Positions 53,340 through 62,300 of a stretch of 64,000 bases of DNA are shown here, one piece after another; the stretch's first letter is position 1, and every line of letters begins with the position of its first letter. Position numbers: made by a program. This DNA comes from Okamejei kenojei. Taxonomy: Eukaryota. The stretch is taken from the NCBI GenBank assembly GCA_035221665.1, contig CM069164.1, positions 13,268,001 to 13,332,000 on the forward strand, in the 5' to 3' direction.

Positions 53340-56300
53340 GATGAGGGTCAAGAACTCCTTTAGAAGAAAATAAAATGTGACTGGTATGGAAGAAGAACTT
53401 GCAATCACGATTGGCCCAAAACTCACTAAAGTGTGGATGCAGGTGTACAAAGGTGAGGCCTCTGCTGAAGGCAGATTGTTGAGTGTCAAAAGCGATAGGT
53501 TTGTGTAGCACTTATGGAAACAGAATGGTAAAATATATATAACAGGAGAGGGACAATCACCAAGGTGCACAGCTGGCAACCTCATGCTCCAAGGTATAGG
53601 TTCTACAGGAGTAATAGAGATAGCGGAAAAAGAGATGAGAGTGTTGGTTGAAAATGTCACCAGTAGTCGGAGATTACATTACTGATGGTTGAACCAGTAG
53701 TCGGAGATTACATTACTGATGGTTGATCCAGTGAGGCTATATATGTAAAGCAGAGATAAAAAAGGGGATGATCACCTTGTTGGGAGTGTACTATAGGCCC
53801 CCAAACAGCCAATGGGAATTAGAAGAGCAAATATGCCAGGAGGTTGCTGGTAGCTTCAAAAGTAATAACATTGTCATAGAGGATTTTAACTTTCCCAATA
53901 TAGCCTGGGAGTGTCCTGGTGTCAAGGGCTTAGATAGGGTGGAATTTGTCAAATGTGTTTGGGAAAGCTTTCTAAGGGATTTGTGGAGGGGCCCCACAGT
54001 GAAAAGGGTAAAGTTTGATCTGCTGCTAGGAAATTGGAACGGGCAAGTGACTGAAGTATCCATGGGCGAGTGTTCTGGGACTAGCGACCACTTTCAATTA
54101 ACTTTAGAGGGCGACCCCACAAGTTAAAACTTTAAATTTGAGCAAGGTCACCTTTGACAGTGCAATCGACTTTAGCAAGTTACTAAGTTGTTTGCATGCA
54201 AAGGATGTCTGGAAAGTGGGATACTTTTAACAGTGTGATGACAAGAGTTCAGGGTATGCGTGTTAGAGTGAAGGGCAAGTCAGCTGAGAGTAAGGAAGCT
54301 TGGATGTAGAGAGAAGATGAGGCACTGGTCAGTCAACGAGGTATGAGACTGGTATCGAAAGCTTGGATCAAGTGCATCACTGGAGGACAGGTGTCGGAGG
54401 TTATGGGGAGAATGGGGTTAATTCTACTATTTGAGGAAATCAGGAAGGTGAAAAGGGAGCAGTGATAGCATTGGCAGATAATATTAAAGAAAATCCAATG
54501 AGATTTTACTTCGGAGTCACGTGAGTGACTACGTGAAGAACCCGCCTGGCGCTGGCAAACGGCATTACGTCGACGCTGACGGCAGAAGCAGGAGCTGCAC
54601 AGACAGCTCCTCGACAGCGGTAGGTTCGGAACCGGCAGGTAAGTGCTGTTGAAAAAATTTTTTAGGACTAGAAAACTCCGTGCCTGGTGGAAACCAGGAT
54701 TTTAAAGGTTTTAAAAACTAACTAAAAGTTTAAATTAAACAGATATACTCTGTTAAAATAACGGAGTTTTAAAAAGAACGTCCCCAGGGAATACCCAGCG
54801 ATCCGGAAGAGATAATTACGGCCGGTTCCGATACTGGTACCGTTAAAATACGGTAGAAAGGTTTAAATGCTCCACAATTTTGGCAGGATATTTTAAAAGT
54901 CAGAAAGACTGTATTTTTAAAAAGTTAATAAAATTCGCGATATGGAGAAAGTACTCCATAATATAAAAAGAGACTAGGGTCACAGTACCCAAACAGTTCC
55001 CCAAAAAAGACCCTAGGGGCTTGAATGTACTAAAGACCAGGGTCACAGTACCCAAACAGTAAAAAAGACCCTGAGGGGCTTGAATACAAAATATGGCTAT
55101 GTGCCAAATTGAAAAATAAAAACTCTGACCCTGGATAGGGTGGAGGAAGTCTCTTTGGTATAATTCCAAGTGGATCAGGGCTGCAAAAGACAGACCCTGC
55201 AAGTGGTGATGTGAATTATGAATGCACACCACAATAAAATTAAAATAAAAGTGAGGCCAGGTGTGCCTGAGATAGCAAAAGTTTTGCTATATCTAAAGGA
55301 AGTGGTGAGGCTATGGAAAAACCTAGCTGCCTACATTAATTATATGGTATCTCACCAACTTCAAGAATACGATAAAACTTTATGTTTTATTTAAATATCA
55401 ATGGTTAATCCATTTATAAATATCCATGTCTCAAATATATGAGATATAAGAAATACAATTTCAAAGTTTCAAAATGGTGCAAATATGTAATACTTGCAAT
55501 ATAAAATAAATTGCCATTAGTTGTGGAGGTTAATAGGAAGAAATATATATAATTTACCAAATCTGCATCATAGGGTTGCAGATTAATACAAATCAGGATC
55601 TCCTGATTATTATAGAATACCTGCCTTATGATAAATCAAAGATATTAATTACAAAAGAAACAGACCACTGATCTTTAAACTTTGGGAAGGAAAACTATGA
55701 TCCAATAAAAATTTTGATTATGGATCAAAACAAAGACAAAGATCTTTTATCTTACGGTGAAAAAACTATGATCCAATGAAAAATTTGATGATGGATCAAA
55801 ATAAAGGCAGAAGTGGTATTATCCAAACATAGCCTTATCTTAACCTATATAATTGGGGAAAAGAAGGCTTGATGTACGTTGAAGAGGTGCAAACATCTGG
55901 TTACAAAATAAGTCATGAAATCTCCAATTATGGGGGATTACAGGTGTATTATGATGGTTAAAACTTAATATAACTAAGGAGGATTGGTTCACCTGTATAA
56001 GGGGAAAACTGATTTCAGGTTTGCACTCAAAAGTAAATTTTAAAAAGAAGGGGAACGTACATGTATATTATAAAATTACCTTAGTGTAAAGATTCATGGT
56101 ATTAAAACCATACAATAATATCATTATTTACACTTTCACAGTGTAAGAAAATAGAAACATCTAGAACATGGAAAACTGTTGTGATTAACAAAGTGTTAAT
56201 CAATATTACAGGTGCTTGAAATTAATTAAAGTGGGTCAAGCTGTGCAAGTTAAAACTTGTCCAAACAATCAATCAGTTCAAGTTGTTAAACTGAACACTG

Positions 56301-59300: not shown

Positions 59301-62300
59301 CCCTCATCGTAACTCCTCATAAAATAACGATCAAACTTCGAACTGGTAAGTTCTCGTTTAATCTTACTATTTTATTTACAATAAGGGAAAGAGAATTGGG
59401 CAGTCATCTCTGGAGCTGCAGGAGATGGGCAAGATTCTGTTTTTACCGTGGATAAAGACATGAGGACTGGGGAAGTTTGCACAGTTAATGCAAATGTCTT
59501 GAGAACCTTGAGTAATAGCCAACGGGATAAATAATTGGTGTCATGGAAGGAAACGGATGGTGATGATGGAAGGTTGTTTTTCCAGACTGGAGGTTTGTGA
59601 TAATGGAGATGAGAAAGTAGAGGGCTTGATTAGTAAGTTTGCAGATTACATTAAATTAGGCAGTACAGAGAGCAAAAATTGATATCAAAAATTGCAGCAG
59701 GATGTTGATCAAGTGAGCTGAAGAATGATTGAAAGGATTTAATGCAGATATATGCACGGCTTTGCAATTTGGGAAGTCAAATGAGGGCAGGAACTACACA
59801 GTGAATGGCAGAGCCCCAGGGAGTGTTCTAGAGCAGAGATCTAGGATTGCAGGTAAATAGATGTTTGAAAGAGACACCACGGGTAGATCGGGTGATCAAG
59901 AAGGTTTTCAACGCTGGTCATCAGCCAGGGTATTGAATGAATTAATAAGTTTATTGGCTAAGTAAGGAATTTGCCTTGGAGCTATGTCCACAAGTGACAA
60001 CAAGACATAGTGACAGTTACGAATGATACATAAAACATTATACATTAATAATAAAACATTGATTAAACATGTGAATTAAATAAAATACCAGAGCAAAAGG
60101 GGGCTGCAGATTTTTGGTTATTGAGTAGAGCTACTACTTGTGGAAAAAAGCTTGAGTAAAATTGAGTAAAGAATTTGGAATGTTATATTAGTTGTACAAG
60201 ATGTGGTTGAGCGCTTCACATTTGGGGTACTGTGTTTAGTTTTGGTCACCCTGCTATAGGAAGGATGTTGTCAAGGTGGTAAGAATGGAGAGAAGATTTA
60301 CAAGGTTGTTCCAAGGACTTGAGGGCCTGAGCAACAGGGAGAGGTTGGACAGGTGAGGGCTATATTCCATAAAGTGCATGAGGATGAGGGGTGTCCTTGG
60401 AGGTAGGTAAGATCATGTAGAGAATAGATAGGACAAATGCAGAGTATTTTATCCAGGGTAGGGGAATCAAGAACAACCGGTTTGCAGTGAGAGTGGAAAC
60501 ATGTAATAGGAACTGTTCTGGGATGCCTGTCTAAATGTGCATGGACCAGGTCAAGACAAGAGAAAACAGGGTGATGAATGACTAATCAGCACCTTTTGAA
60601 GCAGGTTCAAAAGACAAAACCAGTAATGCACAACTCGGGTGAAGAGAGCATGCCCTGAACTCTGGTCATCACGTCTCCGGTAGGGAAGCTCCGATTCGGG
60701 GCTTACCTTGCCTGTACATCTGGCCGCCCGCAGCGGCAACTGCGGAGGTTTATGTCCCGACCATGGGGAAAAATGGAGGAGGACTGACTGAATTTGTGCC
60801 TTCCACCACAGTGGTGGATGTTTTGTGTTCAATTTTACTTAATTGTGTATTGTGTGTTCTTTTTTTTTAATTGTACTGCTGCTGGCAAGTTCATTTCACT
60901 GCACTTCATTGTGTATGCGACGAATAAATCTGACTATTGATTATAATGGGATGACTCATCTGTAAATGAGTGTAAAATGTACTTGGAAACGGCAGAGAAT
61001 AGCCATTCTTAGGAAACAGACAGGATGTGGTTGGATTGGACATTAGGGCTACTTTATGTTTGGGTTATGTATCTGGAGCCATTGAAGCACCATCTGGCTG
61101 AAAATGTTATACACTGAACCATATGAGGCTACTTGGGCACTTGGCCTTGCCAAATGAGGTCATTGCCATATCAATGCCAGTTATCCTATTGAGTATTTCA
61201 GAAGTTTACACTTTTATTAGGTTGGAATATATTTTGATTTTTGGGCGGGTTGTTTCCACCTGGTGAGCCGATTAGATGCTTATATTGTGATTGGTTAAAG
61301 GCTTGTTGCACCTCCAGCTCTGATCTCAGCCTTTCTCCGGCCCCAAATTGTTGGACTGAGATTTGAAGTTGATATTGGAATCGTCTTTCTTGATCAGCAG
61401 AAATAAACCAACTTGTGTGCAGTGGTACTGTGCTCCTTGTGGTGAGGGGCTGGGATTATATTCATTGTCACACCCAAGGAAGGAATTGTTGAAGTAGCTC
61501 CTGCAAATATAATATAGGAATCACTACTGAACGTGCATTTCCGTGGCACCTTTCATGACTTGCCAAAATGTAGCTAAAGCAAAATTCTTTAATCTTGAAA
61601 CTGGGAATGTGCAACAAATGATCTGTGATTGGCAAGCTCCTGTTAACGGCAAAGAAGTAATGACCTGCTTATCTGTTCTGGTGATTGGGGGATAAATATT
61701 GATGAGCCGGCACTAGCAGGCCTTCGTTTTGACTCTCCCGAAGATCTGGGCCACGCTCGCCAAGACCTGCAATGGACCCCAACTTTACTTAATTCTATAT
61801 CATCAACAAACGGCCCCTCGCCTACCTGGACTCTGCTAAGGATCACAAGCTTGCCCGCCTCCAGACCGGTCCTTCCACCGACACCCCTCGACTCGACTGC
61901 CCACTGTCCACCGCTGGGCCACGCCGCCTGCCCGACCACCATGGGGCCGAGACCCAGGAGGCCATCATCGCCATGAAGACTAGCACAATCATCCACCGTT
62001 TCTCCGACACTCGTCGCCGATCCCAGACCTGGACCACCGAATCTGCAGCCGCTGCCCTTCACCACCTCCCCGGGGCCACCAAAGCCGTCTCCGGCTGACC
62101 ACTGACGCTTTGTTCGCTAACCCGTTTTTAAAAATTTAAGCAGTCTGAAGAAGGATCTCGACCCGAAGCATCACCCATTCCTTCTATCCAGAGATGCTGC
62201 CTGTCCCGCTGAGTTGCTCAAGCATTTTGTGTCTGTTTTCAGTGACAACCAGCATCTGCAGTTCCTTCCTGGGCCTTTCATTGATATCCTCCTGAGAATA

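What the first reader, a model, noticed from the sequence alone, without database searches (positions are those of the whole stretch)
54503..59374. Full-length DIRS retroelement with flawless replication termini around a destroyed coding interior
Seen: 36/36 ITR match and 37/37 and 82/82 ICR-to-terminus matches, all CpG-rich. The 4.4-kb interior has no ORF above about 110 codons, and its RT (YLDY), RNase H (NNTTAVAYVN), methyltransferase and recombinase (RVQTL, ISRWL) motifs are barely legible. Known: DIRS1 elements use the ICR to regenerate both ends and circularise. Inference: decay in place would have hit termini and CpGs equally. So this looks like a recently inserted, full-size non-autonomous DIRS lineage that kept replicating in trans long after losing its genes. 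I do not know of this being described in cartilaginous fishes.
Basis: partly seen in the sequence, partly recalled or inferred. Interest (0 to 1): 0.78.

Follow-up and report, generated by a model that had tools for sequence, protein, structure and literature searches.

The report
Gene-less DIRS retrotransposon with perfect ends
A 4.9-kb mobile element of the DIRS type has intact, mutually matching end sequences but no working genes, so it was most likely copied and inserted by enzymes borrowed from a relative, which is a known lifestyle for mobile DNA.

Summary
The sequence observation holds. Window 54503-59377 (+) has the full DIRS1-like terminal layout: short inverted repeats, a right extension, and an internal complementary region (ICR) that is the reverse complement of right end joined to left end. 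The matches are 37/37, 36/36 and 84/85, including the 82/82 run. Shuffles give at most 22.

The 4.07-kb interior has no ORF above 110 codons and 75-103 stops in every + frame. Its CpG o/e is 0.28, against 1.3-1.9 in the end regions. The element sits inside an older LINE, between its endonuclease and RT parts, with no target duplication beyond a shared 9-mer.

Ends that differ by at most about 3% cannot coexist with an interior that decayed in place. The copy was therefore already gene-less when it integrated, and proteins came in trans.

Three points are not shown:
- That the interior descends from DIRS genes. No tool recognised any RT, RNase H or recombinase remnant.
- That the family is multi-copy or long-lived.
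- That an autonomous partner exists.

No vertebrate genome could be searched. Non-autonomous DIRS-order elements are already known (TOC1), so this is a new member of a known kind and of modest interest.

The parts
54503..59377 (+). Whole DIRS1-like element (4875 bp). The outer 9 nt at each end are shared with the target site, so the true ends lie somewhere inside these 9-mers.
   Evidence: Inverted-repeat system. The flanks are one LINE copy.
54503..54511 (+). Left copy of the junction 9-mer (ATTTTACTT). It is identical to the junction as written in the ICR.
   Evidence: LINE-protein alignments of the left flank run on to 54509.
54503..54529 (+). Divergent part of the left ITR (27 nt). It is exactly complementary to the left ICR and only 21 matches, 5 mismatches and 2 gap columns against the right ITR.
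54530..54565 (+). Conserved part of the left ITR (36 nt), 36/36 with 59263-59298.
54566..54860 (+). Single-copy, CpG-rich 5' leader (18 CpG, o/e 1.32). Inferred to be a cis-acting region kept by selection on replication.
   Evidence: Poisson P=1.3e-7 against the interior's o/e. The function is inferred, not shown.
54861..58925 (+). Gene-less interior, treated as one broken part. It has 75, 91 and 103 stops in the three + frames of 1355 codons each. The motif-like strings lie in all three frames, so there are at least two frame changes. It also holds three tandem duplications and several microsatellite arrays. GC is 0.323 and CpG o/e is 0.28.
56961..57860 (+). The only stretch of the interior where one + frame is clearly short of stops: 9 in 300 codons against about 22-24 expected. 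This is a weak, reference-free hint of a former reading frame.
58926..59027 (+). Single-copy CpG-rich stretch just before the ICR (5 CpG, o/e 1.55).
59028..59064 (+). Left ICR, the reverse complement of the left end (37/37).
59056..59140 (+). Right ICR, the reverse complement of the right end (84/85). It overlaps the left ICR by 9 nt, which is the circle junction.
   Evidence: As single-stranded DNA it pairs with the right end in an 85-bp stem, -104.4 kcal/mol, z -20.8.
59141..59262 (+). Spacer between the ICR and the right ITR (2 CpG, o/e 0.45).
59263..59298 (+). Conserved part of the right ITR (36 nt).
59299..59325 (+). Divergent part of the right ITR (27 nt).
59326..59377 (+). Right extension (rE, 52 nt). 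It is complementary only to the right ICR. Its last 9 nt are the right copy of the junction 9-mer (ATTTTATTT, one transition from the left copy).
53759..54502 (+). Host LINE, endonuclease side. It is 49% identical to Mobula hypostoma proteins over residues 38-244, in 2 HSPs in 2 frames, so at least one frameshift. Pfam Exo_endo_phos_2 scores E 1.7e-4, below the cut-off.
59378..60398 (+). Host LINE, RT side. It is 40% identical to residues 603-845 of P0007, in 4 HSPs in 3 frames, so at least two frameshifts.

Best explanation
This is one copy of a non-autonomous DIRS1-like (tyrosine-recombinase) retrotransposon. It keeps all the terminal features that define a DIRS1-like element: left terminus, short ITRs, right extension, and an ICR that spells the reverse complement of the right end joined to the left end. 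It has no usable gene.

Proposed working, following the published DIRS-1 model:
- A sub-genomic transcript is reverse-transcribed.
- The missing ends are rebuilt by annealing to the ICR, so the ends and the ICR are identical at each round.
- The closed junction then recombines with a short matching genomic sequence, without a target duplication. Here that site was ATTTTAYTT inside an old LINE.

Shown: the anatomy, the lack of genes, the nesting in the LINE, and that the interior was already broken at integration. Inferred: RT, RNase H and recombinase were supplied in trans by an autonomous relative that I did not see. Also inferred: about 0.36 kb at the 5' end and about 0.45 kb at the 3' end are kept by selection for replication, while the interior drifts. 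I rate a sustained gene-less lineage, as opposed to a one-off event, at about even odds.
For: The anatomy matches PMC3266345 item by item:
- divergent ITR 27 nt (published range 9-36);
- conserved ITR 36 nt (31-304);
- rE 52 nt (9-75);
- two ICRs totalling 113 nt (85-130), at the 3' end and overlapping at a junction;
- no target duplication.

End pairs match at 157 of 158 positions. The one mismatch lies in the 9-mer that may come from the target. P(<=1 mismatch) is 0.048 at 3% divergence and 3e-5 at the 7.9% seen between the interior's own tandem duplicates (17 of 216).

All 22 CpGs in the repeat-bearing stretches are intact. P is 1.5e-15 if they had shared a fall from o/e 1.32 to 0.28. The single-copy 5' leader is equally CpG-rich (18 observed against 3.8 expected), which repeat-to-repeat conversion cannot explain.

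The interior has 75, 91 and 103 stops per + frame, against about 110 in shuffles. At 1.5% change or less per lineage, about 60 substitutions would fall in 4065 nt. About 4% of substitutions in sense codons make stops (textbook figure, recalled), so only about 3 stops could be new.

Trans action of the DIRS-1 RT on a truncated element is reported in PMC7192593 (section 21 read). An active non-autonomous DIRS-order element, TOC1, is cited in bioRxiv 10.1101/2022.06.16.496473 (passage).
Against: - There is no second copy in the window.
- No copy or relative was found through any protein route, nor in the prokaryote genome scan, which could only have caught contamination. Multi-copy status and the autonomous partner are therefore unshown.
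- No tool recognises any DIRS domain in the interior.
- My segment-wise Pfam test is insensitive. It also missed the RT part of the flanking LINE, which tblastn detects at E 3e-15. By stop density the interior (lowest frame at 0.69 of expectation) is no more decayed than the LINE remnants (0.71 and 0.87). 'Destroyed beyond recognition' is thus not established.
- In PMC7192593 the truncated DIRS-1 made cDNA but a full cycle in trans was not shown.
Confidence: 0.7

Rival explanations
1. One-off recombinant. During reverse transcription, template switching between the RNA of an active element and the RNA of an old dead copy gave a cDNA with fresh end regions and an old middle. It integrated once and founded no lineage.
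For: The borders between CpG-rich and CpG-poor sequence are sharp, near 54950 and near 58700-58850 (150-nt bins). No other copy was seen. Template switching between co-packaged RNAs is common in retroviruses and LTR elements (general knowledge, recalled).
Against: It needs two switches and a transcribed dead donor. Nothing here separates it from a sustained lineage. It still requires proteins in trans, so it differs from the best explanation only in history.
Confidence: 0.18
2. The interior never was DIRS coding sequence. Instead, DIRS end regions flank captured or newly grown non-coding DNA.
For: No retroelement family was found in any of the 58 plus 63 segments sent to Pfam. The RNase-H-like segment had 0 hits in 1.84 billion proteins and in PDB. 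The interior also holds three tandem duplications and microsatellites.
Against: The size (4875 bp) is close to autonomous DIRS1-like elements: DIRS-1 is 4814 bp and AcaDIRS1 is 5222 bp. One + frame in 56961-57860 has 9 stops against about 22-24 expected. Stop trinucleotides are depleted on + (269 against 329, 0 of 1000 shuffles reached this) but not on - (239 against 251). However, 3 of 3 control stretches also show some depletion. To me the RNase-H-like one recalls retroelement RNase H, but that is memory, not a test.
Confidence: 0.2
3. Decay in place. An autonomous copy inserted long ago. The interior rotted, while the ends stayed identical through gene conversion between the repeats, conversion from active copies elsewhere, or host-level selection or hypomethylation.
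For: The interior and the LINE flanks look equally old: CpG o/e is 0.28 against 0.26-0.30, and stop density is near random in both.
Against: The repeats are only 36-85 nt. Conversion between them cannot protect the single-copy CpG-rich stretches 54566-54860 and 58926-59027. 157 of 158 identical positions lie next to a randomised interior. Conversion from active copies would have to occur at both ends independently.
Confidence: 0.05
4. Hypermutation. A single-strand-specific deaminase edited the cDNA in one or a few rounds and spared the stretches that are duplex through ICR-end pairing.
For: The interior is AT-rich (GC 0.323), while the paired stretches are intact. Published work (PMC7192593) describes single-stranded DIRS-1 cDNA.
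Against: There is no one-sided signature. In the interior G (0.189) exceeds C (0.134), as it does in the LINE flanks. Differences between the interior duplicates are 10 transitions and 7 transversions. The unpaired 5' leader is also spared.
Confidence: 0.04

Closest known systems
DIRS1-like retrotransposons with short ITRs, e.g. AcaDIRS1 of Aplysia californica (Table 3 of PMC3266345, seen as a passage)
   Same: The end layout is nearly the same. AcaDIRS1 has a 36-nt divergent ITR, a 32-nt conserved ITR, a 48-nt rE, ICRs of 45 and 88 nt, ATT at its start and AAT at its junction. This element has 27, 36, 52, and 37 and 85 nt, starts with ATT, and has AAT at the ICR junction. Neither makes a target duplication.
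   Different: AcaDIRS1 is described as a coding element of 5222 bp. This copy is 4875 bp with no gene. No sequence comparison was possible, because no DIRS sequence could be fetched.
DIRS-1 of Dictyostelium discoideum (PMC7192593)
   Same: The ICR is complementary to both extremities (33 + 55 nt there, 37 + 85 nt here). The ICR is needed for retrotransposition there, and the RT can act in trans on a truncated element. The sizes are similar (4814 bp).
   Different: DIRS-1 has ITRs of about 300 bp and three ORFs. Here the ITRs are 63 nt and there are no ORFs. A full cycle in trans was not shown for DIRS-1.
TOC1 of Chlamydomonas reinhardtii, called an active nonautonomous DIRS retrotransposon (passage in bioRxiv 10.1101/2022.06.16.496473)
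   Same: It is a gene-less member of the DIRS order that moves with proteins from elsewhere.
   Different: It is from a green alga. I did not see its structure in any call. From memory it belongs to a branch with split direct repeats rather than the ITR/ICR layout.
LARD and TRIM derivatives of LTR retrotransposons; mini-Ty1 (the latter cited in PMC7192593; LARD and TRIM recalled from memory)
   Same: The ends are conserved, the interior is non-coding, and movement is in trans. Mini-Ty1 needed about 380 nt at the 5' end and 357 nt at the 3' end, close to the roughly 360 and 450 nt CpG-rich end regions here.
   Different: Those have direct LTRs and use a DDE integrase. Here there are inverted repeats plus an ICR, and the inferred enzyme is a tyrosine recombinase.

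Membership tests
DIRS1-like retrotransposons (as defined in PMC3266345) | Inverted terminal repeats with a conserved part and a divergent part | tested here: met
   The conserved part is 36/36. The divergent part has 21 matches, 5 mismatches and 2 gap columns (81%), within the published 50-85%.
DIRS1-like retrotransposons (as defined in PMC3266345) | [quoted passage not shown] | tested here: met
   The matches are 37/37 and 84/85, and the rE is 52 nt.
DIRS1-like retrotransposons (as defined in PMC3266345) | The ICRs overlap at a short circular junction, and the same short sequence sits at both ends with no target-site duplication | tested here: met
   The ICRs overlap by 9 nt, where the literature gives 3. 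The two end 9-mers agree at 8 of 9 positions. P of 5 or more of the 6 positions beyond a 3-nt junction matching by chance is 0.007. The flanks are adjoining parts of one LINE.
DIRS1-like retrotransposons (as defined in PMC3266345) | A short sequence of at least 10 nt shared by both ITRs and both ICRs at the border of the conserved and divergent ITR parts | tested here: inconclusive
   Read: 10 nt are shared by three of the four stretches, and 6 nt (TACGTG) by all four.
DIRS1-like retrotransposons (as defined in PMC3266345) | Encodes GAG, RT-RNase H-methyltransferase and a tyrosine recombinase | tested here: not met
   No ORF exceeds 110 aa. Pfam found 0 retroelement families. There were 0 hits. 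It is therefore not an autonomous member; at most it is a derivative.
Non-autonomous retrotransposon derivative (LARD/TRIM/TOC1 type) | Complete cis-acting ends without coding capacity | tested here: met
Non-autonomous retrotransposon derivative (LARD/TRIM/TOC1 type) | Several genomic copies sharing the same non-coding interior | not testable with these tools
   No vertebrate genome collection was open. There is no second copy in the window. Exact look-up of 8 ORFs and a near-length protein search found nothing.
Non-autonomous retrotransposon derivative (LARD/TRIM/TOC1 type) | An autonomous partner with matching ends in the same genome | not testable with these tools
   None is present in the window: 127 stop-free segments of 75 aa or more from 1-51000, and 74 of 45 aa or more from the flanks, gave no DIRS-type domain.
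Ngaro / PAT-like elements (DIRS order) | Split direct repeats instead of ITRs plus ICR | tested here: not met
   Direct repeats between the two end regions are only chance-level: 24-27 nt at 74-75% (families D8 and D10).

The most novel reading that the evidence does not exclude
A long-lived, near-full-length, gene-less DIRS1-like lineage in a cartilaginous fish. Selection keeps only about 0.36 kb at the 5' end and about 0.45 kb at the 3' end. That would be a natural map of the cis requirements of DIRS retrotransposition. It would also be natural evidence that the whole cycle, including end restoration and recombinase integration, works in trans in a vertebrate. The extended 8-of-9 match between the junction and the target hints at target choice by more than the published 3 nt.
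Probability: 0.4. Interest if true: 0.55.

Novelty: new member of a known kind. Interest (0 to 1): 0.36.

Why it matters
If the family proves multi-copy, the contrast between its kept ends and drifting interior marks the sequences a DIRS element needs in cis. It would also show that all DIRS proteins can serve another RNA, which the Dictyostelium assay left open for everything but the RT (PMC7192593). As a single copy, it is a tidy textbook example of dating an insertion from its end-to-ICR identity. For annotation, protein-based searches would miss it, but its end structure identifies it.

Tried and rejected
Routes to a DIRS protein comparator all failed:
- The word-indexed search of the RNase-H-like segment against longer proteins found 3 candidates, none at E<=1.
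- The exhaustive phmmer search gave 0 of 1,835,955,588 proteins at E<=0.001.
- PDB gave 0 at E<=10.
I did not send read-through versions anywhere.

Routes to other copies also failed:
- Self-BLAST of the window gave 13 rows, all within the element.
- Exact look-up of 8 ORFs found 0.
- A near-length search with the 128-aa minus-strand stretch gave 35 candidates and 0 hits.
- A 24-mer of the ITR core had 0 matches in prokaryote genome contigs, which could only have caught contamination.

Other attempts:
- Empty-site paralogue: the flanks match other LINE fragments in the window, but none spans the insertion site.
- Dating by the host LINE: rejected as uninformative, because the LINE remnants are as stop-ridden as the interior.
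- Stop-trinucleotide depletion as proof of coding ancestry: rejected as unclean, because control stretches also show it.
- Rfam gave only a chance-level snoRNA match (E 0.33, 24.9 bits against a gathering score of 55).

The metagenome and viral contig collections and the supplements of papers were closed. The supplements of PMC3266345 and PMC4350176 may list DIRS families of cartilaginous fishes.

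
Full report
**What is at the coordinates.** Window 54503-59377 (+) carries a three-way system of inverted matches.
- The first 37 nt (54503-54539) are the exact reverse complement of 59028-59064.
- The last 85 nt (59293-59377) are the reverse complement of 59056-59140 at 84/85.
- 54530-54565 is the exact reverse complement of 59263-59298 (36/36).

The longest exact inverted match in 54000-60000 is 82 nt. 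In 100 dinucleotide shuffles the mean was 13.6 and the maximum 22.

**Anatomy.** Read 5' to 3', the block 59028-59140 is the reverse complement of the right end followed by the left end, that is, of the closed end-to-end junction. The two halves overlap by 9 nt. The outer 27 nt of the left terminus match the right ITR only loosely (21 matches, 5 mismatches, 2 gap columns). The last 52 nt (59326-59377) match nothing but the ICR.

This is the layout that Piednoel et al. describe for DIRS1-like elements (PMC3266345, passages read):

| Feature | Published range | This element |
|---|---|---|
| Divergent ITR | 9-36 nt, 50-85% | 27 nt, 81% |
| Conserved ITR | 31-304 nt | 36 nt |
| Right extension | 9-75 nt | 52 nt |
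| Two ICRs at the 3' end, summed | 85-130 nt | 113 nt |

The published junction overlap is 3 nt, and integration leaves no target duplication. The closest layout in their Table 3 is AcaDIRS1 (36, 32, 48, 45-88; start ATT, junction AAT). As single-stranded DNA, the right ICR and right end form an 85-bp stem (-104.4 kcal/mol, z -20.8).

**Insertion site.** The left flank holds a LINE endonuclease remnant. Pfam Exo_endo_phos_2 scores E 1.7e-4, below its cut-off. The remnant is 49% identical to two Mobula hypostoma proteins over residues 38-244, with E about 1e-36, in 2 HSPs in 2 frames. The right flank holds the RT part of the same kind of LINE on the same strand: residues 603-845 of P0007, 40% identity, 4 HSPs in 3 frames.

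The flanks were compared apart. Close to the element, the left flank aligns to LINE proteins up to window 54509. The right flank resumes at 59398, about 20 residues further on in the same proteins; these short alignments are weak, with E between 4e-4 and 1.1. The LINE proteins do not match the element itself. The whole 4875 bp therefore entered one LINE copy as a unit.

Both ends of the element carry the same 9-mer, ATTTTACTT on the left and ATTTTATTT on the right. The ICR has the left version. This fits recombination between the junction and a like sequence in the target. The single mismatch among the 158 paired positions may therefore be target sequence rather than a mutation. Eight of nine is more than the published 3 nt. 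The chance that 5 or more of the 6 further positions match is 0.007.

**The interior.**
- No ORF exceeds 110 aa; that one starts with GTG on the minus strand. There are 9 ORFs of 55 aa or more in all.
- The longest stop-free stretch is 100 codons on + and 128 on -.
- In 54861-58925 the three + frames hold 75, 91 and 103 stops in 1355 codons each, against about 110 in dinucleotide shuffles. The minus frames hold 86, 75 and 78 against about 83.
- The interior also holds three tandem duplications with units of 52-102 nt, which differ at 17 of 216 aligned positions, and several microsatellite arrays.

No tool confirms that these strings are domain remnants.
- Pfam gave no retroelement family for 58 of 58 stop-free segments of 35 aa or more. 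It gave 13 weak unrelated hits, all with E>=0.014.
- Pfam also gave none for 54 of the 64 shorter + strand segments plus 9 repeats. I left out 10 segments that lie in the terminal repeats.
- The RNase-H-like segment found nothing.

This negative result is weak. The same segment-wise Pfam test missed the RT part of the flanking LINE, which is real. By stop density the LINE remnants are as randomised as the interior: the lowest frame is at 0.71 and 0.87 of expectation in the LINE parts, against 0.69 in the interior. The one positive hint is 56961-57860, where one + frame has 9 stops in 300 codons against about 22-24 expected. Stop trinucleotides are depleted on + (269 against 329; 0 of 1000 shuffles reached this) and not on - (239 against 251). 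However, 3 of 3 control stretches elsewhere in the window also show some depletion, so I do not lean on this.

**Composition.**

| Stretch | CpG o/e |
|---|---|
| Left terminus | 1.31 |
| Single-copy 5' leader 54566-54860 (18 CpG) | 1.32 |
| Interior (29 CpG in 4065 nt) | 0.28 |
| Single-copy 58926-59027 | 1.55 |
| ICR | 1.93 |
| Spacer 59141-59262 | 0.45 |
| Right terminus | 1.76 |
| LINE flanks | 0.30 and 0.26 |
| Whole window | 0.38 |

The change from CpG-rich to CpG-poor is sharp, near 54950 and near 58700-58850 in 150-nt bins.

**What follows.** In the published model, the ends are rebuilt from the ICR and the left ITR from the right one at every round (PMC7192593, passages). The three repeat pairs therefore start out identical and then diverge.
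- With at most 1 difference in 158 positions, pairwise divergence above 3% has P below 0.05. At the 7.9% seen between the interior's own duplicates, P is 3e-5.
- At 1.5% or less per lineage, about 60 substitutions would fall in the interior and about 3 of them would create stops. The 4% figure for stop-creating substitutions is textbook knowledge, recalled.
- Every frame has 75 or more stops. The interior was therefore already dead when this copy integrated, and the enzymes came from elsewhere.
- All 22 CpGs in the repeat-bearing stretches are intact (P 1.5e-15 under shared decay). The single-copy leader is just as CpG-rich (18 against 3.8 expected, P 1.3e-7). Conversion between the repeats cannot explain this, so decay in place is unlikely.

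**What does not follow.** The same paradox, fresh ends around an old middle, applies to the source copy. That is reasonable, but a single recombinant cDNA with ends from an active element and a middle from a dead one gives the same picture. I therefore rate 'trans-mobilised gene-less copy' as well supported and 'long-lived lineage' at about even odds. A deaminase explanation was considered and set aside. G exceeds C in the interior and in the flanks alike. The duplicates differ by 10 transitions and 7 transversions. The unpaired leader is spared.

**Known or new.** DIRS-1 needs its ICR, and its RT acts in trans on a truncated element, but a full cycle in trans was not shown (PMC7192593, section 21 read whole). 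TOC1 of Chlamydomonas is called an active nonautonomous DIRS retrotransposon (bioRxiv 10.1101/2022.06.16.496473, passage).

Five full-text searches and passages from PMC9210276, PMC4350176, PMC9004415, PMC6817897, PMC12477816 and PMC5753468 showed no description of a gene-less DIRS1-like element in a vertebrate or of one in cartilaginous fishes. Supplements were closed, and subscription papers and Repbase are not in the library, so this absence is weak.

The species is not established. The LINE's best named relatives are from a ray, at 52-55% identity.

**Verdict.** This is a real feature, described correctly at the sequence level. It is a new member of a known kind and of modest interest.

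Noticed in passing
window 37136-37441 (+) and 50668-50943 (+): Two exons of a host gene of the KIF23/MKLP1 kind. One has a kinesin motor domain (E 1.1e-8) and the other the Arf6-interacting domain of mitotic kinesin-like protein 1 (E 8e-30). The DIRS-like element lies about 3.6 kb downstream on the same strand, so probably in an intron or just past the gene.
   Followed up: no
window 37921-38514 (-): A 198-aa stop-free stretch with a GIY-YIG nuclease match (E 1.1e-4, just above the cut-off). This is probably a Penelope-like element remnant next to the kinesin exon.
   Followed up: no
window 60673-60942 and 21351-21633; 60227-60474 and 8057-8307: The LINE on the right flank has paralogous fragments elsewhere in the window, at 76% and 73% identity. 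None spans the insertion site.
   Followed up: partly
inside the interior part, window 54861-58925: A pair of 25-nt direct repeats (22 of 25 identical, family D7) brackets a GC-richer stretch of about 90 nt that holds 2 of the interior's few CpGs. It looks like a small secondary insertion with a target duplication. Its origin is unknown.
   Followed up: no
window 59100-59175: There is a local palindrome centred on the inner end of the right ICR, with a 13-nt unit repeated twice at 59113-59138. It may be part of the structure used when the ends are rebuilt. This was not tested.
   Followed up: no
window 1326-1664 (-): A weak Pfam match to the EBNA-2 core transactivation domain (E 5.8e-6, 26.2 bits against a cut-off of 35). 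It is most likely a low-complexity artefact.
   Followed up: no
window 17680-17864 and 41425-41692: Two runs of N. They were left as they are. ORFs listed across the first run are artefacts of the N.
   Followed up: no
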